64,000 bases of DNA, taken from IMG/VR virus record IMGVR_UViG_2778261161_000002. One strand, given 5' to 3'. The notes beneath the pieces are model-generated. The model was not told the origin of the DNA, did not search any database, and saw only the letters and a list, made by a program, of their open reading frames with translations. Of the stretch, positions 2,127 to 37,082 are shown piece after piece. Origin of the DNA: a virus. Its lineage: Duplodnaviria > Heunggongvirae > Uroviricota > Caudoviricetes. Position numbers and translations under genes: made by a program. The number at the start of each line of letters is the position of its first letter. Position 1 is the stretch's first letter.

Positions 2127-4062
2127 CAATCCTTTACGAATTAATATTCAGTCTACTTTTGCTGATACGATCCCCGGCTATATGCCAAGTCGCTGGTCTT
2201 CAGAAGAATTAAGCGAAGATGACCTGATTTTTGAGGCGGCGACCTTAGAAGATATTGAGCTTGCCTATATGGGCAATGAAATTCTGGTTGTGTCTGACGA
2301 AGCTATGTTTGAGTCCATAACTACAACCAGAATTCGGTTAGCTCAAACAATGCGAGCTTTCGTCCGTGCGCTGAATCGTGGCCTGAATGGTACGAATATT
2401 ATGGCAGGGACTGATGAAGCTGGGACCGATGAAAATGGACGTAATTGTATTGGTGGTGCGATTATCGGTCGTGTACGTCGGGTAGCTAATATCCCTGTTT
2501 TGACCGCGCAGATACCGCTTACTGACGGGCAGAGTACAAGCATAATTTTCCACTCTCCAACAGCTGACGGGGCAAAAATAAAGAGTAACGACGAGCTTGT
2601 TGCATTTCAGTTTTTACTTAATAAGCGTAACGTAACTCACGTTGTCGCCCCGATTGGTGGGAGAGATGTTTCTTTAAGCCAGGTATGCCAGGCGCTATCT
2701 AATTTGATTGAGCGTAACAGCGAAAAATTTAAGAAAGCAAAAGAGCGCCAGGACAAAATGAAGGCAGATATTGAGAGTTATCTCAATGAAGCAGATAAAC
2801 TGGCAGAAGAACGGTCAATAATGATTGATCAGGTGGACGTTGCGCAACGTGGGCTGACTGAAAAGCGTGCTGCTCTTACGGAGATGCAAAAAAAACTTGA
2901 TGCCCAGAAAGCTATCAATGAGGAATTACAAGCAAAACGCGATAAATTGTTGTCTGCTAAAGGTGAAAAAACGAAAGAACGAGCGTTTAGTGACCAGCTG
3001 CGACATGTAAAACATAATCTTGCCATTGACGGAAAAACAGTGCTTGATAATGGCGCTGAAGTTAATTATGTCACGTCCGGCAGTGACAATTTCGTTACGA
3101 TAGTAGCACCTGAAGGTAAATTCAGTATTGATGCCAGTGCTGTCAAAGGAGGCAGTTTGGCAGATGCTGCAACCAAATTACTTAAAGCCTACCGAGAGCA
3201 TAACGCAGATAAATATAAAGTTGATGTGTTACCAGGCCAGTTGGAAGACTCCGAACCACCACAGACAGACCCCGAAACGAACCCAGTATTACAACCAGAG
3301 AGCCAAGATGTAGGTGAATACCACTATGCACTTCAATCTCGCCCGGCTGGTGTTGGTGCTGTTCCGGATGGAAATAAAGCCGTGCTTGATCGTCCTGACC
3401 AGGCTGATCAGTATTACGAATATGCTCGTCACGGTATCATTACGTATGACCGTAAACTGACAGATGAAGAAGTCAGCCAGTACGAGTTGCTTTATCTTCC
3501 TGATGAAGATGAGCTGAAAGATTTTGCAGGCCAATTGGTTGCGTCCAGCATGTCGAAACATATTGATGGCTATGTGGACCTGTTTGGCAGTGACCTGAAA
3601 ACATTCAAGGCGCAAGTGAAAATTCTTTTCCGCAAAGCGTTTCCAAACGTGGCGTATCCACTTAGTGATGGGGAGAACCTTTTCATTATGGACGTGTATA
3701 ACGCCCTTCAAAATCATTCAAGCGAAGTAAAAACAGAGCATGTGGTTGAGCCAGAATCACAACCACAACCACAACCACAACCACAACCAGCACCAGAACA
3801 GGAGTCGGAGCCAGAAGAAGCGGGTGAATCAGCAAGTGAAGCTGATCAGGAAGCAGATAAAGCGCTGGAGTACCTGAAATCCGTGCCGGAGCAGTTTACA
3901 TCCCGCGATCTGACGGTCATCAGTGCTGAACTTGATCATGTGCAGGAAGCAGCAAACGCTCTAATCAGTGCAGGTCGATACGACGAGAACGAAGCCACTG
4001 TGGGTGCAGCAGTTGACTACCTGATCAATATTCTGGCTGAAATTCAGCAGGGAGGTGTTTAA
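2119..4062 (+). CDS. large virion-associated protein (DarA-like by position), with PQ repeat linker
   Basis: about 647 aa ORF, GGAGGA before ATG 2119; coiled-coil centre, (PQ)5 linker, acidic tail; no motif proves DarA identity. Confidence 0.45.
   Translation: MINNPLRINIQSTFADTIPGYMPSRWSSEELSEDDLIFEAATLEDIELAYMGNEILVVSDEAMFESITTTRIRLAQTMRAFVRALNRGLNGTNIMAGTDEAGTDENGRNCIGGAIIGRVRRVANIPVLTAQIPLTDGQSTSIIFHSPTADGAKIKSNDELVAFQFLLNKRNVTHVVAPIGGRDVSLSQVCQALSNLIERNSEKFKKAKERQDKMKADIESYLNEADKLAEERSIMIDQVDVAQRGLTEKRAALTEMQKKLDAQKAINEELQAKRDKLLSAKGEKTKERAFSDQLRHVKHNLAIDGKTVLDNGAEVNYVTSGSDNFVTIVAPEGKFSIDASAVKGGSLADAATKLLKAYREHNADKYKVDVLPGQLEDSEPPQTDPETNPVLQPESQDVGEYHYALQSRPAGVGAVPDGNKAVLDRPDQADQYYEYARHGIITYDRKLTDEEVSQYELLYLPDEDELKDFAGQLVASSMSKHIDGYVDLFGSDLKTFKAQVKILFRKAFPNVAYPLSDGENLFIMDVYNALQNHSSEVKTEHVVEPESQPQPQPQPQPAPEQESEPEEAGESASEADQEADKALEYLKSVPEQFTSRDLTVISAELDHVQEAANALISAGRYDENEATVGAAVDYLINILAEIQQGGV
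3758..3788 (+). repeat. (CACAAC)x5 tandem hexanucleotide repeat encoding PQPQPQPQPQ
   Basis: perfect tandem repeat read directly in the sequence inside the 2119..4062 CDS. Confidence 0.85.
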
Positions 4063-4430
4063 TGACCATCTCTGTTTTAGACCGCCTGAAATTAGGTAAA
4101 GAGCTATCAGATCTAATGCAGGCGCAGAAAACTGCGCCAGTATTGCAACGCGTCACCATTGGTAAGCAGATTGTTGATGTGATGCTGAAATTGGGCCTGG
4201 GGACTGCCGCGCAACCGGCAGCGGAACCGCAACAACAGGCTGATCCTGTTGTAGATGAAGTCCCTAAGATAGTGACTGACTTCCTGGGCGGTGTGTTCAC
4301 AAAGTCCACACAAATGGAATTTATTGATGCGCTGCGTGGGATCTCAAACTATGTTGGCGAGTTCCTTACGTTGGAGCAGGCTAAAGAGCAGACCATAAGC
4401 TGGGTGAAAGCTAACGGTTATGCCGGGTAA
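4062..4430 (+). CDS. hypothetical protein
   Basis: 122 aa ORF, TAATG overlap with upstream gene. Confidence 0.5.
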   Translation: MTISVLDRLKLGKELSDLMQAQKTAPVLQRVTIGKQIVDVMLKLGLGTAAQPAAEPQQQADPVVDEVPKIVTDFLGGVFTKSTQMEFIDALRGISNYVGEFLTLEQAKEQTISWVKANGYAG

Positions 4431-4432
4431 TC

Positions 4433-4456
4433 AAAAGGGGCTGAAATGCCCCTTTC
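4433..4456 (+). terminator. intrinsic terminator-like hairpin
   Basis: AAAAGGGGC-TGAAAT-GCCCCTTT followed by T-rich tract. Confidence 0.55.
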
Positions 4457-4512
4457 ACTTATCTGTTCTCACATAAATCACACACTTTTTACACTCACAG
4501 CTTTCTCTATAG

Positions 4513-5910
4513 TTGGAGTGTATTTTGAACAAATCAGTTACTTCTGCGCTTTCCGAGGCCGCAGATATTAACAGCGTCATTGCTCTGGTTTCTTCATTAG
4601 AGAGGAAAGAAACACACCTGGGGCGAAGTAGCTACGTAGTCACCAGCAAAGGTGCAGAGGTAAAGACGGCTTTTAAGGTCGTTGATGCCAGCAGTCTGAT
4701 CATTTCGAACAACCTTGACGGTACGATTAACCCGGCCTTCCCGGAAGAACTCCAACCACGAGATCGTACCCGGCTATCCAGCAAACTCCAGGTTAACCGT
4801 ATTGCCTCCAATTTACGCCCGGCACAATTAACGGATTCCGGTATGAGCAGCCACGGAGCGCCTATAGTTGGTCCGGACAACGTTGTTGAATCCGGCAACG
4901 GAAGGAGTATGGGTATCTGGCGTGCCTATGAGCAAGGACAGGCGGATGAGTATCGCCAGTACCTGATCGACCATGCGAAAGAGTTTGGTCTGAATCCTGA
5001 CGAAATTTCGCAAATGTCTATGCCCGTACTGGTGCGAGAAAGACTCACAGATGTAGACCGCGCTCAATTTGCCCGCGATTCAAACATTAGCGATCTGCAA
5101 GAGATGGCAGCAAGTGAAAAAGCGTATGCGGATGCGCAATTTCTCACTGAGAGCGTCATGGCGCTATTTAATCCTTCAGATGATGGAAATCTGCTGGCGC
5201 GGTCCAATGATGCGTTTATTCGTGCGTTTTTGCGCGAAATTGGCGATACAGCGACGGCAGGCTTGCTTACTGCCGATGGGCGTCCCACGAAACAGCTTAT
5301 CGATCGCATCCAGAATGCAATTTTTGCCAAAGCGTACAAGGATGAAAGGCTTGTTCGGCTGGTGTCGGAAGAGCCAGATCCGGAAATGCGTAATATCCTG
5401 ACCGCATTAAATACGGCAGCCAGCGATTTTGCGCAAATGCAGTCGCTGTCTGGCGACGCTCACCATGACGCAGTAACAGGCTTAGTGGACGGTATAGAGC
5501 AGGTTAATGGCCTGGATACACAGGCGATAGCAGCACTCCAGGAAGCAATTAATCTTGTACGTGAAGCCAAAGACAACGGTCAGGCCGTTGAAGAAGTGAT
5601 CGCCCAAAGGGGGTTATTCGGCGACAGTACACCGGAAGCTGAGGCATTGGCGCTATTCATCGTAGCAAATAATCGCAGTGCGAAGCGTATGGGGGCAGCA
5701 TTCAAAAAAATGGCGCAAAAAATCAACGACGAGCTGACTCATAAACAACAGGCATTGGGCGATATGTTCGGCGGTGGCGATGTTGATCTGCGTCGTATTT
5801 TGTCTGCTGTATCTGATGAAATTGAGGGTGAATTTGGCGAAGGGAAAGGTCTGAACTTTGCTATGTTTGAAAATTCTACGGATCTAAATAATTGCCGTAC
5901 GGAAAACTAA
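4513..5910 (+). CDS. hypothetical protein (possible virion internal protein)
   Basis: 465 aa ORF with uncertain TTG start; no recognisable catalytic motif. Confidence 0.45.
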   Translation: MECILNKSVTSALSEAADINSVIALVSSLERKETHLGRSSYVVTSKGAEVKTAFKVVDASSLIISNNLDGTINPAFPEELQPRDRTRLSSKLQVNRIASNLRPAQLTDSGMSSHGAPIVGPDNVVESGNGRSMGIWRAYEQGQADEYRQYLIDHAKEFGLNPDEISQMSMPVLVRERLTDVDRAQFARDSNISDLQEMAASEKAYADAQFLTESVMALFNPSDDGNLLARSNDAFIRAFLREIGDTATAGLLTADGRPTKQLIDRIQNAIFAKAYKDERLVRLVSEEPDPEMRNILTALNTAASDFAQMQSLSGDAHHDAVTGLVDGIEQVNGLDTQAIAALQEAINLVREAKDNGQAVEEVIAQRGLFGDSTPEAEALALFIVANNRSAKRMGAAFKKMAQKINDELTHKQQALGDMFGGGDVDLRRILSAVSDEIEGEFGEGKGLNFAMFENSTDLNNCRTEN

Positions 5911-30771: not shown

Positions 30772-30805
30772 ATAACTTTAAATAATTGGCATTATTTAAA
30801 GTTAG
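30772..30805. other. rox-type recombination target site
   Basis: TAACTTTAAATAAT-TGGC-ATTATTTAAAGTTA; arms and (reverse-complemented) spacer match the rox site of phage D6 as recalled. Confidence 0.8.
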
Positions 30806-30956: not shown

Positions 30957-31985
30957 ATGAGTGAATTAATTATCTCTGGCAGTTCCGGTGGTTTTCTGCG
31001 CAACATTGGCAAAGAGTACCAGGAAGCCGCAGAAAACTTTATGCGGTTCATGAATGACCAGGGGGCTTATGCGCCGAATACTCTGCGCGACCTCCGGTTG
31101 GTGTTTCATTCCTGGGCGCGCTGGTGTCACGCTCGCCAGCTTGCCTGGTTTCCGATCTCACCAGAAATGGCCCGCGAGTATTTTCTTCAGCTGCATGATG
31201 CCGATCTGGCTTCGACCACCATTGATAAGCACTACGCCATGCTGAACATGCTGCTTTCGCATTGTGGCCTTCCGCCACTTTCGGATGATAAAAGTGTTTC
31301 TCTGGCTATGCGGCGCATCCGGCGCGAAGCGGCAACTGAAAAAGGCGAACGAACAGGCCAGGCTATACCGCTTCGGTGGGACGATCTGAAACTGCTCGAC
31401 GTCCTGTTGTCCAGGTCAGAACGGCTGGTGGACCTGCGCAACCTGGCTTTTCTCTTTGTTGCATACAATACGCTGATGCGTATGTCGGAAATATCGCGTA
31501 TTCGTGTAGGTGATCTGGACCAAACAGGTGACACTGTCACGCTACATATTTCACACACGAAGACAATAACGACCGCCGCCGGGCTTGATAAGGTGCTTTC
31601 CCGTCGCACTACCGCTGTGCTGAATGACTGGCTGGATGTTTCCGGGCTTCGCGAGCATCCTGACGCTGTGCTGTTCCCGCCGATACACCGTAGCAATAAG
31701 GCCAGGATCACGATAACGCCCCTTACTGCACCTGCAATGGAGAAAATATTCAGCGACGCCTGGGTGTTGCTGAATAAAAGAGATGCTACGCCAAACAAAG
31801 GAAGATACCGGACGTGGACCGGGCATAGTGCACGCGTCGGGGCCGCTATTGATATGGCTGAAAAGCAGGTGTCTATGGTGGAGATCATGCAGGAAGGAAC
31901 CTGGAAGAAACCGGAAACACTTATGCGGTATCTTCGCCGTGGCGGCGTGTCTGTGGGGGCTAATAGCCGCCTGATGGATTTGTAA
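30957..31985 (+). CDS. dre: Cre-family tyrosine recombinase (Dre-like)
   Basis: 342 aa; colinear with P1 Cre (WFP..PE, NLAFL..AYNTL.R..EI.RIRV.D, HSARVGAA.DMA); rox site 150 bp upstream. Confidence 0.9.
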   Translation: MSELIISGSSGGFLRNIGKEYQEAAENFMRFMNDQGAYAPNTLRDLRLVFHSWARWCHARQLAWFPISPEMAREYFLQLHDADLASTTIDKHYAMLNMLLSHCGLPPLSDDKSVSLAMRRIRREAATEKGERTGQAIPLRWDDLKLLDVLLSRSERLVDLRNLAFLFVAYNTLMRMSEISRIRVGDLDQTGDTVTLHISHTKTITTAAGLDKVLSRRTTAVLNDWLDVSGLREHPDAVLFPPIHRSNKARITITPLTAPAMEKIFSDAWVLLNKRDATPNKGRYRTWTGHSARVGAAIDMAEKQVSMVEIMQEGTWKKPETLMRYLRRGGVSVGANSRLMDL

Positions 31986-31989
31986 ATTA

Positions 31990-32020
31990 AATTTCTAACA
32001 CATCTTTTTAGATTAACATC
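31990..32020. promoter_or_regulatory. TTTCTAACA ... TTAACAT motif (operator-like site J)
   Basis: motif family member before the 32059..35983 operon. Confidence 0.4.
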
Positions 32021-32058: not shown

Positions 32059-32403
32059 TTGCAGAGTCAAATCACGGAATCAAGACGCTTCAAGGTGGAT
32101 GGTTACACCGTAACCTTCGCCGCTGGTGTTAAGAACAGTCATGCTGTCGTTGTGTTCGGCATCATGACCGGGCTTGAGGCCGTCCCTGTGTTTACCCTCG
32201 AAAAAAACTGGCGAAATCTGGAGGAAGCAGAAAGCTACGTCCGGAAAGTAACCATCATTGCCGCCGAAAAACTCCTGGCCCACTATCAGGAAAATTATCG
32301 CACTATGGTCGAGAAGATTAATCTCGCTTTCACTCGCCCCACTACCGGCTTTATTGCACCGGATACTAATGCAGGTCGATATCCTGCAAGGGGGCGTCGG
32401 TGA
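32059..32403 (+). CDS. hypothetical protein
   Basis: 114 aa ORF, first gene of operon. Confidence 0.45.
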   Translation: MQSQITESRRFKVDGYTVTFAAGVKNSHAVVVFGIMTGLEAVPVFTLEKNWRNLEEAESYVRKVTIIAAEKLLAHYQENYRTMVEKINLAFTRPTTGFIAPDTNAGRYPARGRR

Positions 32404-32876
32404 AAACTTATTACCCATCTCTGAATTGTTACCCGTCTTCCTATCCAGAATTATCCGGGAAGCTGTTAGCTCTATTAGCTAAAGCACCTACGGAATGGTT
32501 TAAGCCAGTCGTTATCAATCCACACTTCCTGGATTACGGAACTGTTCGCACTCGTAACGAACTCAAAAACCTACTGGCGCATGGATTCATTCGACACCGT
32601 GCCGGGAAAGGCTATCAGTTAGCGATTGCGCCAGAAGAGGCCGTGCGGCTATTCGCATATCGTGACAGCCAGACAAAAGCTCGGGTAATAGCTCAAATAC
32701 TTCATAACGGCAGCACCTATGCCCGCCAGTTTGGCGGCGACACGTCGCAGTTCTTGCGGGCGGTGCGATCGCTGGAGGAGCAAGGAGTTATTGAAAGTTC
32801 CTGTCTTCCTGTTCCTACCGTTCCACATATCAAACGTCGGGTTTACACCTTCACGCAGAGAGCTAAAAAACAATGA
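32400..32876 (+). CDS. hypothetical protein, possible winged-helix
   Basis: 158 aa; overlapping start/stop. Confidence 0.4.
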   Translation: MKTYYPSLNCYPSSYPELSGKLLALLAKAPTEWFKPVVINPHFLDYGTVRTRNELKNLLAHGFIRHRAGKGYQLAIAPEEAVRLFAYRDSQTKARVIAQILHNGSTYARQFGGDTSQFLRAVRSLEEQGVIESSCLPVPTVPHIKRRVYTFTQRAKKQ

Positions 32877-33367
32877 TTTACGTAAAAGTGAAACGCCTAC
32901 ATCCGGCAGCAAAACTTCCAGCTTATGCCACCTCCGGATCGGCGGCGATGGATTTTGAGGCTGTTGAAATAAAACCATGCGTCGATAGCAATGGTGCAAT
33001 TTCCTCAAGCTGGTGGGTGTACACCGGACTGGCTATGGAGATCCCGCCCGGCTGGTGTCTGAAACTCTATCCGCGCTCCGGATTGGGCTGCAAAAAACAT
33101 ACTCGCCTGGCTAACTGCGTAGGAATTATCGACTCCGATTATCGCGGTGAAATCATGGCAAAACTGATTACTGATCCCGGCGGGGAAGGCGTTTGTCTCA
33201 AGCCTGGAATGGCTGTCATGCAAGGCATTTTTGAGCGTGTTGAACAAGTCTCACTAGTCGAGGTTGAGGAACTCAACGAAACGGAACGTGGTGCTGGTGG
33301 CTTTGGTAGCACATCGGAAGACCACTTTGAAATCAAGCGCACACCGCTTCAGTACGCAAAGTTTTAA
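32873..33367 (+). CDS. dut: dUTPase
   Basis: 164 aa; GIIDSDYRGE and other dUTPase motifs. Confidence 0.8.
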   Translation: MIYVKVKRLHPAAKLPAYATSGSAAMDFEAVEIKPCVDSNGAISSSWWVYTGLAMEIPPGWCLKLYPRSGLGCKKHTRLANCVGIIDSDYRGEIMAKLITDPGGEGVCLKPGMAVMQGIFERVEQVSLVEVEELNETERGAGGFGSTSEDHFEIKRTPLQYAKF

Positions 33368-33381
33368 GCAGAGGAAAGGCT

Positions 33382-34083
33382 ATGAATTACATGACAACGA
33401 AAGAGCTTTTTAAGTTCCTTCCCAAATACAAAGCTCACAAAAACGTTAGTGCATCGAAAATCAAAAATGTTGTTATTTTCGGAGTAACTGCTTCCCCACT
33501 TTGGGGCTGCATCGAACTCGTTGAACCAAAAGGGGCAACAGTTTGTGTTGACGCAATTTTTTTACAAAAACACCGACCAAAAACTGGCGGGTATCTGATC
33601 GTTTATGAAAACGGTTATCTGTTCTATGCCCCGGAGAAACCATTTGAGCAATGCTATGGCCTGGTTAACGACGCCTCCGAAAATGGGGTATCGCTCAGCA
33701 TTGAAGGTCACAATGGGGTGACATTCATTACAGCCAGGGACGTAACTATTTCTGCTGGCGGTATCGCTACTCTACAAGAAGAAATCGACCTTGAAGCAGC
33801 CGACTTTTCTGACGCGCTGATGTGGCTGAAGGATGGCAAGAAAGTTGCTCGACGCGGGTGGAACGGCGAAAACCAATTCTGCTGGCTGGTTCCTGACAAA
33901 CAGGGTGCTTCAAGACTAACCCCTATAAAACATGCCGCAAACGGAGAGCTTGAAATCAATTTCGACTCTCCTCTTGCTCCTTATGGTGCGCATTTCGTTT
34001 TGAAAAATGCACAAGGTGTAGTTGTTCCATGGATGCCTTCTGTAGGTGACCTGCTGGCATGTGACTGGTTTGTAGTGGAGTGA
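33382..34083 (+). CDS. protein with C-terminal DUF2829 (Tad2-like) domain
   Basis: 233 aa; FSDALMWLKDGKKVARRGWNG ... VVPWMPSVGDLLACDWFVVE fits DUF2829 as recalled. Confidence 0.55.
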   Translation: MNYMTTKELFKFLPKYKAHKNVSASKIKNVVIFGVTASPLWGCIELVEPKGATVCVDAIFLQKHRPKTGGYLIVYENGYLFYAPEKPFEQCYGLVNDASENGVSLSIEGHNGVTFITARDVTISAGGIATLQEEIDLEAADFSDALMWLKDGKKVARRGWNGENQFCWLVPDKQGASRLTPIKHAANGELEINFDSPLAPYGAHFVLKNAQGVVVPWMPSVGDLLACDWFVVE

Positions 34084-34089
34084 TTTAAC

Positions 34090-34896
34090 GTGGAAAATAC
34101 TAAAGCAATTCAATACCGCTTGCGTAATGGCCTGCTGGTGGCTGTTAACGCCGACATGTCACTGCCGTTTGACACGATTGAACGCACCATAATGACGTAT
34201 CTCGGCTTTAATGAAGAACTGAATGAAGAGCATGGCGTAGCTATATGGAGTGATGCAGACAGCGGCGTTCGTCGTTACATCACCGCCAGGGGCAAAGACT
34301 ACTCTCTGGAAGAACTGTTTGCCCTTGCGCAGTCTTTCGAATGTGTAGCATTAGACCTGTTTAATGATCCTGCTATAGCGCAACGACTTATACGCGAGCT
34401 TGGGCTATCCGTTACACCAATTATCTTTAAAAATGGCAGCCTGACTGGCACATGGCGCGTAGAACGCATATCAAACTACCTTCCATATAACCGACAGTTA
34501 AATGGAGTAATCTCCGGCGTTAATCAGCCCGTAGCATGTGAAAATGTAAACCTGGTTGTCGCTGTTTTGGCAACCGCATGTCGTGTTATCGGTTTGGCTA
34601 AACAGGCATTTATTCATTTCCCAAATGGTGCAGAAGGTAGCGCAGAGATTATCGCGTGTGATTTCGAATTTACCTGGATGCTACGCGAATATCTGGACCA
34701 AACAGTATTCCGTGCCGAAGAACTGGATATGTATATCACGTCAACGATTCCAGACGATGTGCGAGCTGAAGCAATCGCTACAGCCAGGGCGAAATGCCGT
34801 GCGGCGATTGCAGAACAGGCCAAAGAAGAACAGTCCGATGAAGTCGCGGCAGATGTGGAGGCAGAGGTAGCGGAGGATGCTGATGCTGACGCCTAA
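34090..34896 (+). CDS. hypothetical protein with acidic C-terminal tail
   Basis: 268 aa; C-terminus EEQSDEVAADVEAEVAEDADADA; overlaps downstream terminase-like gene. Confidence 0.45.
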   Translation: MENTKAIQYRLRNGLLVAVNADMSLPFDTIERTIMTYLGFNEELNEEHGVAIWSDADSGVRRYITARGKDYSLEELFALAQSFECVALDLFNDPAIAQRLIRELGLSVTPIIFKNGSLTGTWRVERISNYLPYNRQLNGVISGVNQPVACENVNLVVAVLATACRVIGLAKQAFIHFPNGAEGSAEIIACDFEFTWMLREYLDQTVFRAEELDMYITSTIPDDVRAEAIATARAKCRAAIAEQAKEEQSDEVAADVEAEVAEDADADA

Positions 34897-35983
34897 AAAC
34901 ATCACCGAATTACCAGAGTGGAGAGAGCTGGTAAGCAAATATAGCCATGACTGGGCATTAGCAGCAGAAGAGTTGATGGGTGTTAAGTTAACCCACCAGC
35001 AAAAGCTAATTGTTGAGGCGATTCAACAAAAAGGTTCAGCAGTCAGCGTCACCACTCCTGAAGGGATAGGCCAAAAGACGGTTATCGCTATAATTAGTAT
35101 TCTTTATACAATCCTGATGCCTGAGTCTAAAACGGTTATTGTTTCCCCAAAGTTCTATAATTGTCGCAGGCAAGTTATCCAATACATAAGTACGTATTGG
35201 GATAGAGTCAGTAACAGAATCCCATTGCTGGGAGAATATTTTAAAGTCGATGGAAACGGCATCAATCATCGTTACCGGGAATATTGGGGCTGCGAAATTA
35301 AGCCATATCACCGAAATTATGAGGAAGGTTTCGGTGGATATTATGCTGAACATCTTTTAATCATTGTTACGGAGGCGGCTCTTGCTGGCGATCGGCTATT
35401 CAGCATGTTAAGAGCATCGTTAGTAAGTGACGATTCACGTATACTTTTAATGTCCGCTCCTTCAGAGGAGGAGCATGGACACTTTTACGATTCCCATCAT
35501 GGTCGTGCTAAATCAGAAGAAAATCCATGTGGTATTTATACAGCCATCAAGCTGAACGCAGAAGATACCCCCATTATTTCTCAAGGTTATCTTGATAACA
35601 TTGCAGAAATATATGGTGGTAAAAACAGCGATTACTACCGTCGTATGATTCTTGGTGAGTTTCCTGGTATTAGGGAGGCTGTTCTTGAATCAGATATGCC
35701 GAAGACAATGCGCTTTTCGATGCCTGATGGTAGTGAATGGATAATGCCATTACGAGTGATAGCCCGGCATCATGCACAGCACCACGCCAAAAAACATGGC
35801 GTTACAACATTGGAGTGGTTGAAATCGCACACCATTCCACTCTTCACTGCAGATCACAATGCTATCGTTGAGTGGGCAAAAACAATTCCGTGGGAGAATG
35901 TTGCTGAATACGCCCACATGCTAAAACCGCCGAAAGACAGGCAAGAAATTAGCTGGCTGACAGCAGAAAAAATCATTGAGTGA
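34877..35983 (+). CDS. terminase large-subunit ATPase-domain paralogue lacking the nuclease domain
   Basis: 368 aa; aligns with PacB ATPase region (GIGQKT vs GTGKSS; shared FYDSHH); Walker B reads LLIIVTEA (D to T); C-terminal 100 aa unrelated to PacB nuclease. Confidence 0.6.
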   Translation: MLMLTPKNITELPEWRELVSKYSHDWALAAEELMGVKLTHQQKLIVEAIQQKGSAVSVTTPEGIGQKTVIAIISILYTILMPESKTVIVSPKFYNCRRQVIQYISTYWDRVSNRIPLLGEYFKVDGNGINHRYREYWGCEIKPYHRNYEEGFGGYYAEHLLIIVTEAALAGDRLFSMLRASLVSDDSRILLMSAPSEEEHGHFYDSHHGRAKSEENPCGIYTAIKLNAEDTPIISQGYLDNIAEIYGGKNSDYYRRMILGEFPGIREAVLESDMPKTMRFSMPDGSEWIMPLRVIARHHAQHHAKKHGVTTLEWLKSHTIPLFTADHNAIVEWAKTIPWENVAEYAHMLKPPKDRQEISWLTAEKIIE

Positions 35984-36018
35984 TAGTAGGAAGCCCGCCT
36001 GGTTGAGCGGGCTTCTTT

Positions 36019-36399
36019 TCAAATATTGGAACCATATAGTTCACGTAGTTTTTCCGCTACTGAAGATACGGGGATTTCACCAGTTGCAGCCCCCACCGCA
36101 AGTTCCACCAGCACGGGAGAATCATATACCTGTATACCGTTACGGCGTAGAAATAGCAGCGCACTGTTTAGCGCGGTACGCTTATTGGCATCATTGAATA
36201 TATGCCCTCTCGCAGTAGCCACCAGGTAGGTTGCGGAGACTTCGAAAAGGTCGGTGATCTCTTCGTAGGCAACTCTGGCCTGAACTCTCCCGATAATGGC
36301 CTCTGCCCTACCCGGATCTGACATTCCCGGCAGGCCGCCGTAGCGGCTTATATTCGCATCATGAAGCGCAATAAGTTCTTCCGGTGATATATGCCTCAT
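36019..36399 (-). CDS. doc: Doc toxin (Fic-fold kinase)
   Basis: 126 aa nearly identical to P1 Doc as recalled. Confidence 0.9.
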
Positions 36400-36620
36400 T
36401 ATCGGTTAACCAGTTCCTTGTTGGTGGAGTCCAGGGTGTCAAACAGGGATGCAAATTCAGCATCCAGCGCCGCCTTTTTGTAGGCTTCGAAAGTAGCCTT
36501 GCTGACAATTACTGCTGGTTCACGGCCTCTGCGGGTGATTTCAACCTCTTCCCCGGCTTCAACATTGTTGAGCAATTCAGAAAGGTTGCCGCGCGCGGTA
36601 CGGAAGTTAATGGACTGCAT
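36399..36620 (-). CDS. phd: Phd antitoxin
   Basis: [15 protein letters not shown]... matches P1 Phd; overlaps doc. Confidence 0.9.
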
Positions 36621-36628
36621 AAACACCT

Positions 36629-36692: not shown

Positions 36693-37082
36693 TTAAATGA
36701 CCGGACAATCATCAAACTCCCCACTTCGGGCATCATTGATGACATGAGTGATCACACCAAAAACAGCATTACTACCCGTGTAACCATCGTCATCTACTGG
36801 TAACGCCTCTTTCTTCCCGGTGCTTAAATCCTCCAGGTGCTGGCGCGGATACTTTCGGTATCTCTTTATGCGATATTCACCCTCCATAGCGCACACAAGC
36901 AGCGAACCATCAACTGGAGTAAGCGAAGAATCAACCACCAGCAAAGCACCCTGCAATATTCCCTCACGGTGATGGCTGTCTGCCGCCCGCATGAAGTATG
37001 TCGCTGATGGATGCCTGATTAGTTGCTGATCAAGAGAAATTCTGCTTTCAACATAGTCCGCCGCAGGAGAAGGGAAGCCCAT
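36693..37082 (-). CDS. humD: UmuD-like S24 peptidase (HumD)
   Basis: 129 aa LexA/UmuD-type fold; LexA box upstream. Confidence 0.75.
   Translation of the reverse strand: MGFPSPAADYVESRISLDQQLIRHPSATYFMRAADSHHREGILQGALLVVDSSLTPVDGSLLVCAMEGEYRIKRYRKYPRQHLEDLSTGKKEALPVDDDGYTGSNAVFGVITHVINDARSGEFDDCPVI

What the first reader, a model, noticed from the sequence alone, without database searches (positions are those of the whole stretch)
33382..34083. DUF2829 (Tad2-like) domain protein in the early operon
The C-terminal 90 aa fit the DUF2829 pattern as I recall it (FS.AL..LK.GKKV.RR.W.G ... PW.PS..DLLA.DW.VV). DUF2829 proteins include Tad2, which sequesters immune signalling nucleotides. Here the domain is fused to a 140-aa N-terminal extension and sits downstream of an operator-like motif and dUTPase.
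Basis: inference. Interest (0 to 1): 0.55.

Follow-up and report, generated by a model that had tools for sequence, protein, structure and literature searches.

The report
Tad2-type immune-signal sponge with OB-fold extension
This gene of a D6-like E. coli phage-plasmid encodes a real member of the Tad2 family, phage proteins that soak up bacterial immune alarm molecules, joined to an uncharacterised OB-fold module; databases already recognise the Tad2 part, so only the add-on is moderately new.

Summary
ORF 33382-34083 (+) encodes 233 aa, and residues 141-232 match Pfam PF11195 (Tad2-like/DUF2829) at E=2.7e-21. They are about 40% identical to the solved Myroides Tad2 (9EIB), and the model superposes on solved Tad2 structures. 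Five of six residues that hold the ADP-ribose signal in solved Tad2 structures are kept; the adenine-contacting Thr is Gly. The gene lies in a tightly packed operon (orf-orf-dut-this gene-isaA-like-orf). That operon starts just after a 17-bp motif found 12 times in the window, probably the repressor operator.

The window is a D6-like (P1-family) phage-plasmid. RefSeq already names the protein "DUF2829 domain-containing", and a 2025 survey reports Tad2 in 93% of D6-like elements. The domain call is therefore correct but not new, and no function has been tested.

The new part is the N-terminal extension. Residues ~12-97 form an OB fold homologous to the phage L decoration protein Dec (6E3C). It belongs to a large unnamed family (>5,000 clusters), mostly stand-alone small phage proteins. 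Members recur fused to Tad2, Acb4, Sequestin, Lockin, Acb2-type and RyR domains. Its role is unknown.

Most likely this is an early-expressed sponge for TIR-derived signals carrying an accessory OB module.

The parts
31984..32000 (+). Copy of the 17-bp operator-like motif (AAATTAAATTTCTAACA), 59 nt upstream of the first ORF of the operon. It is the presumed binding site of the D6-type C1-like repressor.
   Evidence: The core TTTCTAACA occurs 12 times against 0.62 expected. The flanks are shared. 11 of 12 copies are intergenic. Repressor binding is inferred, not shown.
32059..33367 (+). Upstream genes of the same operon: orf (phrog_1968), orf (phrog_6669) and dut (dUTPase). Their ends overlap or abut.
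   Evidence: The same gene order is annotated in pAPEC201603 and in phage D6.
33371..33379 (+). Shine-Dalgarno-like GAGGAAAGG before the ATG at 33382.
   Evidence: Read directly from the sequence.
33382..34083 (+). The whole ORF: a 233-aa two-module protein identical to WP_061354287.1.
   Evidence: P0001 is 100% identical.
33415..33672 (+). N-terminal module, residues ~12-97: a Dec-like OB fold from a large unnamed family of small phage proteins.
33673..33789 (+). Linker, residues 98-136, Gly/Thr/Ser/Ile-rich and of low model confidence. It is exchanged by recombination independently of both flanking modules.
   Evidence: pLDDT is below 50 for residues 98-106 and 108-135, i.e. nearly the whole linker. 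Against three relatives dS=0 here while the flanks have dS=0.4-0.7; against a fourth the pattern is reversed.
33790..34080 (+). C-terminal Tad2-family (PF11195) domain, residues 137-233. Predicted pocket residues are W160, N161, G162, W217, S220, G222 and D223.
   Evidence: The pocket residues of SPO1 Tad2 and HgmTad2 come from 10.1101/2023.05.01.538930 and 10.1101/2023.11.15.567273.
33892..33981 (+). Variable insertion between strands beta2 and beta3 of the Tad2 domain, residues ~171-200. The window carries the longest of at least four alleles. In HgmTad2 and MoTad2 this region builds the second ligand pocket.
   Evidence: Allele table. pLDDT is below 50 for residues 174-198. The role of the insertion in HgmTad2 is described and in MoTad2.
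34090..34896 (+). IsaA-like gene (phrog_2326), starting 6 nt after the stop codon. It travels with the DUF2829 gene as a two-gene cassette in both D6-like and P1-like elements.
34877..35983 (+). Last gene of the operon, 368 aa (phrog_5902, with a weak match to terminase-large-like phrog_2). It is absent from phage D6 itself. A terminator-like hairpin follows at 35997-36012.

Best explanation
The ORF encodes an early-expressed counter-defence protein built from two modules.

Shown: residues 137-233 are a true Tad2-family domain by sequence and by predicted fold.

Inferred: like the solved Tad2 proteins, this domain assembles into a homotetramer. Pockets at the protomer interfaces then bind and sequester a TIR-produced ADP-ribose-type alarm molecule (3'cADPR/gcADPR, His-ADPR or N7-cADPR; which one cannot be told from sequence). 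The Thoeris effector is therefore never switched on. The W-N-G loop and the W..S..D helix that hold the diphosphate and riboses are intact. The Thr that contacts adenine is Gly throughout this enterobacterial clade. The Arg and Asn that let HgmTad2 bind cGG/cGAMP are missing. The specificity is therefore likely nearer to MoTad2, its closest solved relative, which binds His-ADPR plus cUMP, than to a cyclic-dinucleotide binder.

Inferred: the gene is transcribed with dut from a promoter guarded by the element's repressor operator. It would be made at once after infection or induction, which is the timing a stoichiometric sponge needs.

Shown: residues ~12-97 are a Dec-like OB fold from a very large family of small phage proteins. 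Members of this family recur fused to at least six different sponge families and to nucleotide enzymes.

Inferred: the OB module is an accessory part. It may act in self-association, as the related, shorter N-domain of RyR Tad does by a domain-swapped dimer, or it may be a further binding or targeting surface. It probably does not alter how the Tad2 domain works.
For: Tad2 domain identity:
- Pfam PF11195 at E=2.7e-21.
- phmmer against PDB: MoTad2 9eib 1.6e-12, 8v3e 2.1e-12, SptTad2 5.8e-9, HgmTad2/AcrIIA7 2e-7, SPO1 Tad2 4.5e-7.
- AF2 model confident over the Tad2 core; Foldseek matches to Tad2 structures at E=1e-7 to 1e-5 with target TM 0.6-0.88.
- About 40% identity to MoTad2. W160/N161/G162, W217, S220 and D223 align with the ligand-contacting W25/N26, W73, S76 and D79 of SPO1 Tad2 and with W21/N22/G23, W87, S90 and D93 of HgmTad2.
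- The W.PSvGD motif is conserved across about 100 relatives.
- dN/dS of the Tad2 part is 0.03-0.34.

Family behaviour and fusions:
- Four of five Tad2 homologues tested inhibited type I Thoeris, and family members bind 3'cADPR, His-ADPR, N7-cADPR, cUMP/cCMP and cyclic dinucleotides.

Expression and distribution:
- Operon packing and the operator-like motif.
- Tad2 is found in 93% of D6-like and 56% of P1-like phage-plasmids.

OB module:
- Structural and profile matches to Dec.
- Fusion partners among 144 representatives: Tad2 7, Acb4/PF13876 4, Sequestin/PF21825 4, Acb2_Tad1 hairpin 1, RyR 1, DUF4406 1. Lockin and Sequestin fusions also appear in published tables.
- The same OB+Tad2 architecture occurs in Klebsiella phage SopranoGao gp55.
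- The RyR Tad N-domain forms a domain-swapped dimer.
Against: - No binding or anti-defence assay exists for this protein or any P1/D6 homologue.
- Not every Tad2 homologue inhibits the systems tested. One of five failed on type I Thoeris, and only subsets of the 18 Tad2 proteins tested by Hadary et al. were active against any one system.
- The adenine-contacting Thr is Gly.
- The 30-residue insertion at 171-200 is modelled with pLDDT below 50, so the second pocket cannot be judged.
- The oligomeric state could not be predicted with the tools here.
- A Dec-type module, which is trimeric on capsids, would not match the symmetry of a Tad2 tetramer if both self-associate.
- Whether Thoeris, Pycsar or CBASS restrict D6-like phages in nature was not examined.
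- The window's OB module departs from its family's near-invariant residues at D77N, S81F, S83A and G91C. Its dN/dS is higher, at 0.34-0.50. Whatever those residues do may be weakened here.
Confidence: 0.62

Rival explanations
1. Two sponges in one protein. The N-terminal OB module is itself a ligand-binding counter-defence domain for a different signal, so the protein blocks two signalling pathways, as Acb4-Tad2 and Acb4-Sequestin fusions do.
For: - 'Guilt by fusion': the module is joined to Tad2, Acb4, Sequestin, Lockin, Acb2-type and RyR sponge domains. The same logic led to the discovery of Sequestin.
- The family keeps a strongly conserved polar and aromatic set (H19, K20, K26, H64, Y71, Y75, D77, Y79, S81, S83, E89, Y92), which looks more like a binding site than a scaffold.
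- Most members are stand-alone proteins of 85-100 aa, the size typical of sponges.
- The genes lie in early or accessory regions.
Against: - The related, shortened N-domain of RyR Tad had no activity against type I Thoeris on its own.
- Hadary et al. set aside proteins carrying this domain rather than treating it as a sponge.
- In this window four of the family's near-invariant residues are replaced.
- The module is also fused to enzymes (MazG, DUF4406, DUF5662), which fits a general adaptor as well as a sponge.
Confidence: 0.22
2. A capsid-associated protein. As in phage L Dec, the OB module plus the Gly/Thr-rich segment binds the phage head, so the Tad2 domain is carried on or in the virion.
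For: - The OB module's closest solved relative is Dec, whose OB fold is the part that binds the capsid.
- The OB fold is followed by a beta-prone segment, as in Dec.
- Some database records name members 'capsid decoration protein'.
Against: - The gene lies in an operator-controlled early operon with dut, not in the head gene cluster.
- Family members in other phages lie in early, immunity or replication regions.
- A sponge on the outside of the capsid would not reach the cytoplasm.
- The linker gives no significant match to fibre or beta-helix families.
- Phage D6 itself has a 146-aa version that lacks the OB module.
Confidence: 0.06
3. A Tad2-fold protein with a different job: an anti-CRISPR (AcrIIA7-like), a toxin (one RefSeq record, NZ_CP031917.1, names a protein under the matching stretch 'MW1434 family type I TA system toxin'), or a binder of a host metabolite unrelated to immunity.
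For: - AcrIIA7 is a DUF2829 protein and matches at E=2e-7 to 4.5e-7.
- The toxin name appears under one hit (H14).
- The pocket Thr-to-Gly change and the novel insertion could mean a different ligand.
Against: - Li et al. could not reproduce Cas9 inhibition by AcrIIA7/HgmTad2 and showed it to be a sponge.
- No NCBIfam model, including any toxin model, matches this protein.
- The diphosphate- and ribose-contacting residues are all kept.
Confidence: 0.08

Closest known systems
MoTad2 / ModTad2 (Myroides odoratus prophage Tad2; PDB 9EIB, 8V3E)
   Same: It is the best sequence match (E=1.6e-12, about 40% identity over 88 aa) and the best fold match. The W-N-G loop and the W-x-P-S-V-x-D helix motif are shared. 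Both have V-P after strand beta2 instead of HgmTad2's R-P.
   Different: MoTad2 is an 89-aa single-domain protein. The window protein has a 136-aa N-terminal OB module plus linker, Gly instead of Ser at the position before the conserved Asp, and a beta2-beta3 insertion about 15 residues longer. MoTad2's binding of His-ADPR and cUMP is experimental; nothing has been tested here.
SPO1 Tad2 (Gp34.65; PDB 8SME/8SMF/8SMG) and HgmTad2/AcrIIA7 (8KBI-8KBM)
   Same: They share the Pfam family and the fold. The residues that contact gcADPR (W/N, W, S, D) are conserved.
   Different: The adenine-contacting Thr (T78 in SPO1 Tad2, T92 in HgmTad2) is Gly222 here. HgmTad2's cyclic-dinucleotide pocket residues R31 and N85 are Val and Pro here. 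Identity is only 30-35%.
Sponge fusion proteins (Acb4-Tad2 of Pasteurella phage Pm86; Tad2-Sequestin; Acb4-Sequestin of phage Ab09)
   Same: A Tad2 or other sponge domain is joined to a second small module in one early phage protein. Many close relatives of the window's Tad2 domain also carry a C-terminal Sequestin (PF21825) domain.
   Different: The window protein has no Sequestin or Acb4 domain. Its partner is the Dec-like OB module, whose activity is unknown.
RyR Tad (gp68 of Pectobacterium phage vB_PatP_CB1)
   Same: [quoted passage not shown] That module carries short versions of the same motifs (YQSHKLVWA ... GYLVVY ... SWSPQGVFDAGN) and scores 22 bits against the family profile.
   Different: The match is weak (E about 1e-3). 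The RyR Tad module is about 25 residues shorter, and the sponge domain is a RyR repeat rather than Tad2.
Phage L decoration protein Dec (PDB 6E3C)
   Same: It has the same OB-fold variant, with 28-30% identity over about 81 residues including KPEVGGYL...Y...S..AFE.NY.
   Different: Dec is a structural protein that binds capsids as a trimer through a C-terminal beta-helix spike. The window gene sits in an early operon, ends in a Tad2 domain, and has no demonstrable spike.

Membership tests
Tad2 / DUF2829 (Pfam PF11195) | Significant match to the family HMM above the curated threshold | tested here: met
   76.3 bits against a cut-off of 25, E=2.7e-21, profile positions 2-73 of 73.
Tad2 / DUF2829 (Pfam PF11195) | [quoted passage not shown] | tested here: met
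   The AF2 model has H142-150, E154-157, E166-170, E204-208, E214-216, H221-225 and E229-232. Foldseek matches 24 Tad2 chains at E below 1.1e-5, probability 1.0 and target TM 0.60-0.88.
Tad2 / DUF2829 (Pfam PF11195) | Ligand-pocket residues of the gcADPR site (W-N in the beta1-beta2 loop; W, S, T and D around helix alpha3) | tested here: inconclusive
   W160, N161, G162, W217, S220 and D223 are conserved. The adenine-contacting Thr is Gly222, a clade-wide change. The pocket is mostly intact, but its specificity cannot be decided.
Tad2 / DUF2829 (Pfam PF11195) | Homotetramer with pockets at the protomer interfaces | not testable with these tools
   Only monomer prediction was available.
Tad2 / DUF2829 (Pfam PF11195) | Binds and releases intact signalling nucleotide; relieves Thoeris, Pycsar or CBASS in vivo | not testable with these tools
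   This needs biochemistry and phage assays.
Tad2 / DUF2829 (Pfam PF11195) | Short single-domain protein (~90 aa), as in the founding members | tested here: not met
   The protein has 233 aa, with an OB module and a linker in front. Multi-domain Tad2 proteins are known and functional, so this does not exclude membership.
Dec-like OB-fold module (phage L Dec, 6E3C) | OB fold with detectable sequence homology to Dec | tested here: met
Dec-like OB-fold module (phage L Dec, 6E3C) | C-terminal trimeric beta-helix spike | tested here: inconclusive
   Residues 98-136 are beta-prone and Gly/Thr-rich, but pLDDT is below 50 over nearly the whole segment and no fibre or beta-helix family matches.
Dec-like OB-fold module (phage L Dec, 6E3C) | Structural (capsid decoration) role and gene context | tested here: not met
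   The gene lies in an operator-controlled operon with dut. Relatives in other phages lie in early or accessory regions. Capsid binding itself was not testable.
Sequestin (PF21825), Acb4 (PF13876), Lockin, Acb5 | Sequence match of the N-terminal module to these sponge or enzyme families | tested here: not met
   Pfam gives no hit for residues 1-138. The family profile does not match LockinA or Acb5A.
MW1434 family type I TA toxin / NCBIfam named families | Match to an NCBIfam model | tested here: not met
   No NCBIfam family matches at E<=0.01.

The most novel reading that the evidence does not exclude
The Dec-like OB module (LPxYKCHKxVxALKI ... KHxPxxGGYxVVYxDGYxSxSPAxAFEEGY) is a still-unnamed, very large family of phage counter-defence domains in its own right. 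It would be either a new sponge for an unidentified signal or a common adaptor that sponges and nucleotide enzymes need, for example for self-association or for reaching the site of signal production. On this reading the window protein is a two-activity inhibitor.
Probability: 0.25. Interest if true: 0.7.

Novelty: new member of a known kind. Interest (0 to 1): 0.4.

Why it matters
If the protein works as inferred, most D6-like and many P1-like phage-plasmids carry a ready-made inhibitor of TIR-based (Thoeris-type) signalling. These elements circulate in pathogenic E. coli, Shigella and Salmonella. The inhibitor would affect both their own spread and that of other phages co-infecting the same cell.

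The gene is a three-piece mosaic whose parts recombine independently, and the Tad2 domain has at least four alleles of the pocket-lining insertion. That makes the locus a natural set of specificity variants that could be tested directly.

The wider point concerns the OB module. It has more than 5,000 sequence clusters and no Pfam family. It recurs fused to nearly every known family of signal sponge, yet published screens have set it aside or tested only a truncated relative against one system. Defining what it does could add a new component to the phage anti-signalling toolkit.

Tried and rejected
- The P1 C1 operator consensus ATTGCTCTAATAAATTT gave no match in the window at up to 3 mismatches. 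The operator-like element is a different 17-mer.
- NCBIfam and PADLOC gave no hits for this protein or its four neighbours of unknown function.
- I checked whether the N-terminal module is Acb5, Lockin or Sequestin, using the sequences in the supplementary tables of 10.1101/2025.07.12.664507. It is not, although it is fused to Lockin and Sequestin domains in those tables.
- The multi-stretch matches of the linker region to P0123 (1243 aa) and P0140 (926 aa) are compositional matches to Ig-like repeat proteins, not homologues.
- P0027, the 306-aa relative with Phage_fiber_2, is a chimera with a tail-fibre N-terminus and says nothing about function.
- The IsaA-like and 368-aa neighbours have no solved relatives.
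- The sigma-70 scan found no convincing promoter directly at the operon start, so the promoter is not located.
- The D6 genome paper (Gilcrease and Casjens 2018) is not in the searchable library, so the operator assignment could not be checked against it.

Full report
**What is there.** The window carries an ORF at 33382-34083 on the + strand (ATG to TGA, 233 aa), preceded by a GAGGAAAGG ribosome-binding stretch. It is the fourth gene of a tightly packed same-strand series:
- orf, 32059-32403
- orf, 32400-32876
- dut, 32873-33367
- this ORF, 33382-34083
- an IsaA-like gene, 34090-34896
- a 368-aa ORF, 34877-35983

A terminator-like hairpin follows at 35997-36012, and the convergent doc/phd pair lies beyond it.

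**Origin of the window.** The 4.1-kb stretch around the ORF is 100% identical to E. coli plasmids CP057047 and NZ_CP127300 (pAPEC201603). Over the 63% of that stretch that aligns, it is 97% identical to phage D6. The Dre recombinase gene and its rox site (30773-30804) lie just upstream. The window therefore comes from a D6-like, P1-family phage-plasmid.

Pfam PF11195 (Tad2-like, formerly DUF2829) matches residues 141-232 over the whole profile at E=2.7e-21 and 76.3 bits, against a cut-off of 25. Sequence search of the PDB finds five solved Tad2 proteins:
- Myroides MoTad2, 9EIB and 8V3E, E about 2e-12
- SptTad2, E=5.8e-9
- HgmTad2/AcrIIA7, E=2e-7
- SPO1 Tad2, E=4.5e-7

An AlphaFold2 model built on 128 homologues is confident over the Tad2 core. 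It superposes on 24 Tad2 chains with Foldseek probability 1.0 and target TM-scores of 0.60-0.88.

**The pocket.** In SPO1 Tad2 the gcADPR ligand is held by W25/N26, W73, S76, T78 and D79 (10.1101/2023.05.01.538930). In HgmTad2 the equivalents are W21/N22/G23, W87, S90, T92 and D93, and mutating them abolishes binding (10.1101/2023.11.15.567273). My alignment puts W160/N161/G162, W217, S220 and D223 of the window protein at these positions. The adenine-contacting Thr is Gly222.

The motif W-x-P-S-v-G-D is almost invariant in about 100 enterobacterial relatives, so the Gly is a feature of the clade and not a lesion. HgmTad2's cyclic-dinucleotide pocket residues R31 and N85 are Val and Pro here, as in MoTad2. 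Published work shows that Tad2 proteins bind 3'cADPR, His-ADPR, N7-cADPR, cUMP/cCMP or cyclic dinucleotides, depending on the homologue (10.1101/2025.08.24.671296). Membership of the family is therefore solid, a sponge function is likely, and the ligand cannot be named.

**Expression.** The P1 C1 operator consensus is absent. A different asymmetric 17-mer, about AAATTAgTTTTCTAACA, is present. Its 9-bp core occurs 12 times against 0.62 expected, and 11 copies are intergenic. One copy lies at 31984-32000, 59 nt before the first gene of the operon. I infer that this is the operator of the D6-type repressor and that the operon is switched on early. This is not shown, and I could not locate the promoter.

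**Not new as an annotation.** PGAP names the protein "DUF2829 domain-containing protein". A survey of phage-plasmids reports "Tad2 AcrIIA7 (anti-Thoeris)" in 93% of D6-like and 56% of P1-like elements (10.1101/2025.09.12.675607). I found no experimental test of any P1 or D6 homologue.

**The N-terminal extension.** Residues 1-138 have no Pfam match. An exhaustive HMMER search with them found 1,595 cluster representatives at E<=0.001. A profile search found more than 5,212 clusters at 90% identity, mostly stand-alone proteins of 85-100 aa from phages and metagenomes.

The shared module spans residues ~12-97, with the motif LPxYKCHKxVxALKI ... KHxPxxGGYxVVYxDGYxSxSPAxAFEEGY. Modelled alone it is confident (pLDDT 87). 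Its best solved match is the OB fold of the phage L decoration protein Dec, 6E3C:
- Foldseek E=2.3e-3
- family profile against PDB sequences, E=4e-4

Hadary et al. state that they removed sponge homologues carrying "PDB 6E3C" from their analysis. The fusion has therefore been seen but not studied.

**Fusion partners of the module.** Among 144 representatives, Pfam finds these domains on the same protein:
- Tad2, 7
- Acb4/PF13876, 4
- Sequestin/PF21825, 4
- Acb2_Tad1 hairpin, 1
- RyR, 1
- DUF4406, 1
- DUF5662, 1

The published Lockin and Sequestin tables contain proteins with this module at 60 and 91 bits. BFVD adds a MazG fusion. [quoted passage not shown] That domain forms a domain-swapped dimer and has no activity against type I Thoeris on its own (10.64898/2026.06.04.730250). 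Its sequence carries shortened versions of the same motifs and scores 22 bits against my profile.

Genes for the module in isolated phages lie in early, immunity or replication regions, not among head genes. Klebsiella phage SopranoGao gp55 has the same OB+Tad2 layout.

I therefore read the module as an accessory part of anti-signalling proteins, not as a capsid decoration. Whether it self-associates, binds a ligand or targets the protein somewhere remains open. In this window it departs from the family's near-invariant residues at D77N, S81F, S83A and G91C. That weakens the idea that it is an active second sponge here.

**Mosaic structure.**
- Phage D6 itself has a 146-aa version that lacks the OB module.
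- P1-like SJ46 has OB + linker + Tad2 placed after ssb and again followed by isaA.
- In RCS47 the gene is split by a roughly 10-kb insertion.

Codon-level comparison of five alleles shows that the OB, linker and Tad2 segments have unrelated divergence patterns. Window against EC361 gives dS=0.017 in OB but 0.65 and 0.85 in linker and Tad2. Window against E. marmotae gives dS=0.70, 0 and 0.43 for the same three segments. The pieces are therefore exchanged by recombination. dN/dS is 0.34-0.50 for OB and 0.03-0.34 for Tad2, so both are under purifying selection.

The beta2-beta3 insertion of the Tad2 domain has at least four alleles, and the window has the longest and a rarer one. This insertion builds the second pocket in HgmTad2 and MoTad2. 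One common 216-aa allele also changes two pocket residues (WNG to WKG, VGD to VDD). This pattern fits diversification of ligand specificity.

**Verdict.** It is a new, untested member of a known family, and the domain is already recognised by annotation pipelines. The more interesting lead is the Dec-like OB module.

Noticed in passing
window 30773-30804 and 30957-31985: A perfect 14-4-14 inverted repeat, TAACTTTAAATAAT-TGGC-ATTATTTAAAGTTA. It is the rox site, and the adjacent gene is the Dre (Cre-like) tyrosine recombinase of phage D6.
   Followed up: partly
window 8688, 9887, 19789, 20832, 22081, 22237, 30582, 31992, 44200, 48772, 49430, 61269 (core start positions): Twelve copies of an asymmetric 17-bp motif (~AAATTAgTTTTCTAACA), 11 of them intergenic, while the P1 C1 operator consensus is absent. 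This is probably the operator set of the D6-type immunity repressor and would define its early regulon.
   Followed up: partly
window 33382-34896; L002 (SJ46) 3854-5488; L004 (D6) 2594-3817: The DUF2829 gene and the isaA-like gene always travel together but sit in different places: after dut in D6-like elements and after ssb in P1-like SJ46. This suggests a mobile two-gene cassette. IsaA-like (phrog_2326) has no known function or solved relative.
   Followed up: partly
window 33382-34083 compared with L008, L009, L010 and L002: Intragenic mosaic: the OB, linker and Tad2 segments show unrelated dS values between the same pairs of plasmids (for example 0.017 / 0.65 / 0.85 and 0.70 / 0 / 0.43). 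Recombination breakpoints therefore fall at the module borders.
   Followed up: yes
relatives P0006-P0019, P0038 and P0043-P0052 (216-aa and similar alleles): A common allele of the Tad2 domain changes two predicted pocket residues (WNG to WKG and PSVGD to PSVDD) and has the shortest insertion. It may bind a different ligand or none.
   Followed up: no
window 34877-35983: A 368-aa ORF (phrog_5902, with a weak match to terminase-large-like phrog_2 at E=1.6e-10) overlaps the isaA-like gene by 20 nt. It is present in this plasmid lineage but absent from phage D6 itself, which has a pdcA-like gene there instead.
   Followed up: no
phage RCS47 (FO818745) 15.5 kb and 25.6 kb: In the P1-like resistance phage-plasmid RCS47 the homologous gene is split into 'part 1' and 'part 2' about 10 kb apart, flanked by annotated inverted repeats. 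An insertion has therefore disrupted the putative anti-defence gene. No match to phage P1 itself appeared among the listed Tad2-domain hits.
   Followed up: no
plasmid NZ_CP031917.1 (hit H14): One RefSeq record names a protein under the matching stretch 'MW1434 family type I TA system toxin'. No NCBIfam model matches the window protein, so the naming looks inconsistent across records.
   Followed up: partly
window 36019-36626 (-) and 36693-37082 (-): P1-type doc/phd toxin-antitoxin pair and a humD (UmuD'-like, S24 peptidase) gene, convergent with the operon.
   Followed up: no
representatives P0225, P0223, P0131; BFVD A0A384WK77: The OB module is also fused to non-sponge partners: DUF4406 (nucleoside deoxyribosyltransferase-like), DUF5662 and a MazG pyrophosphatase. 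It can sit at either end of the protein.
   Followed up: partly
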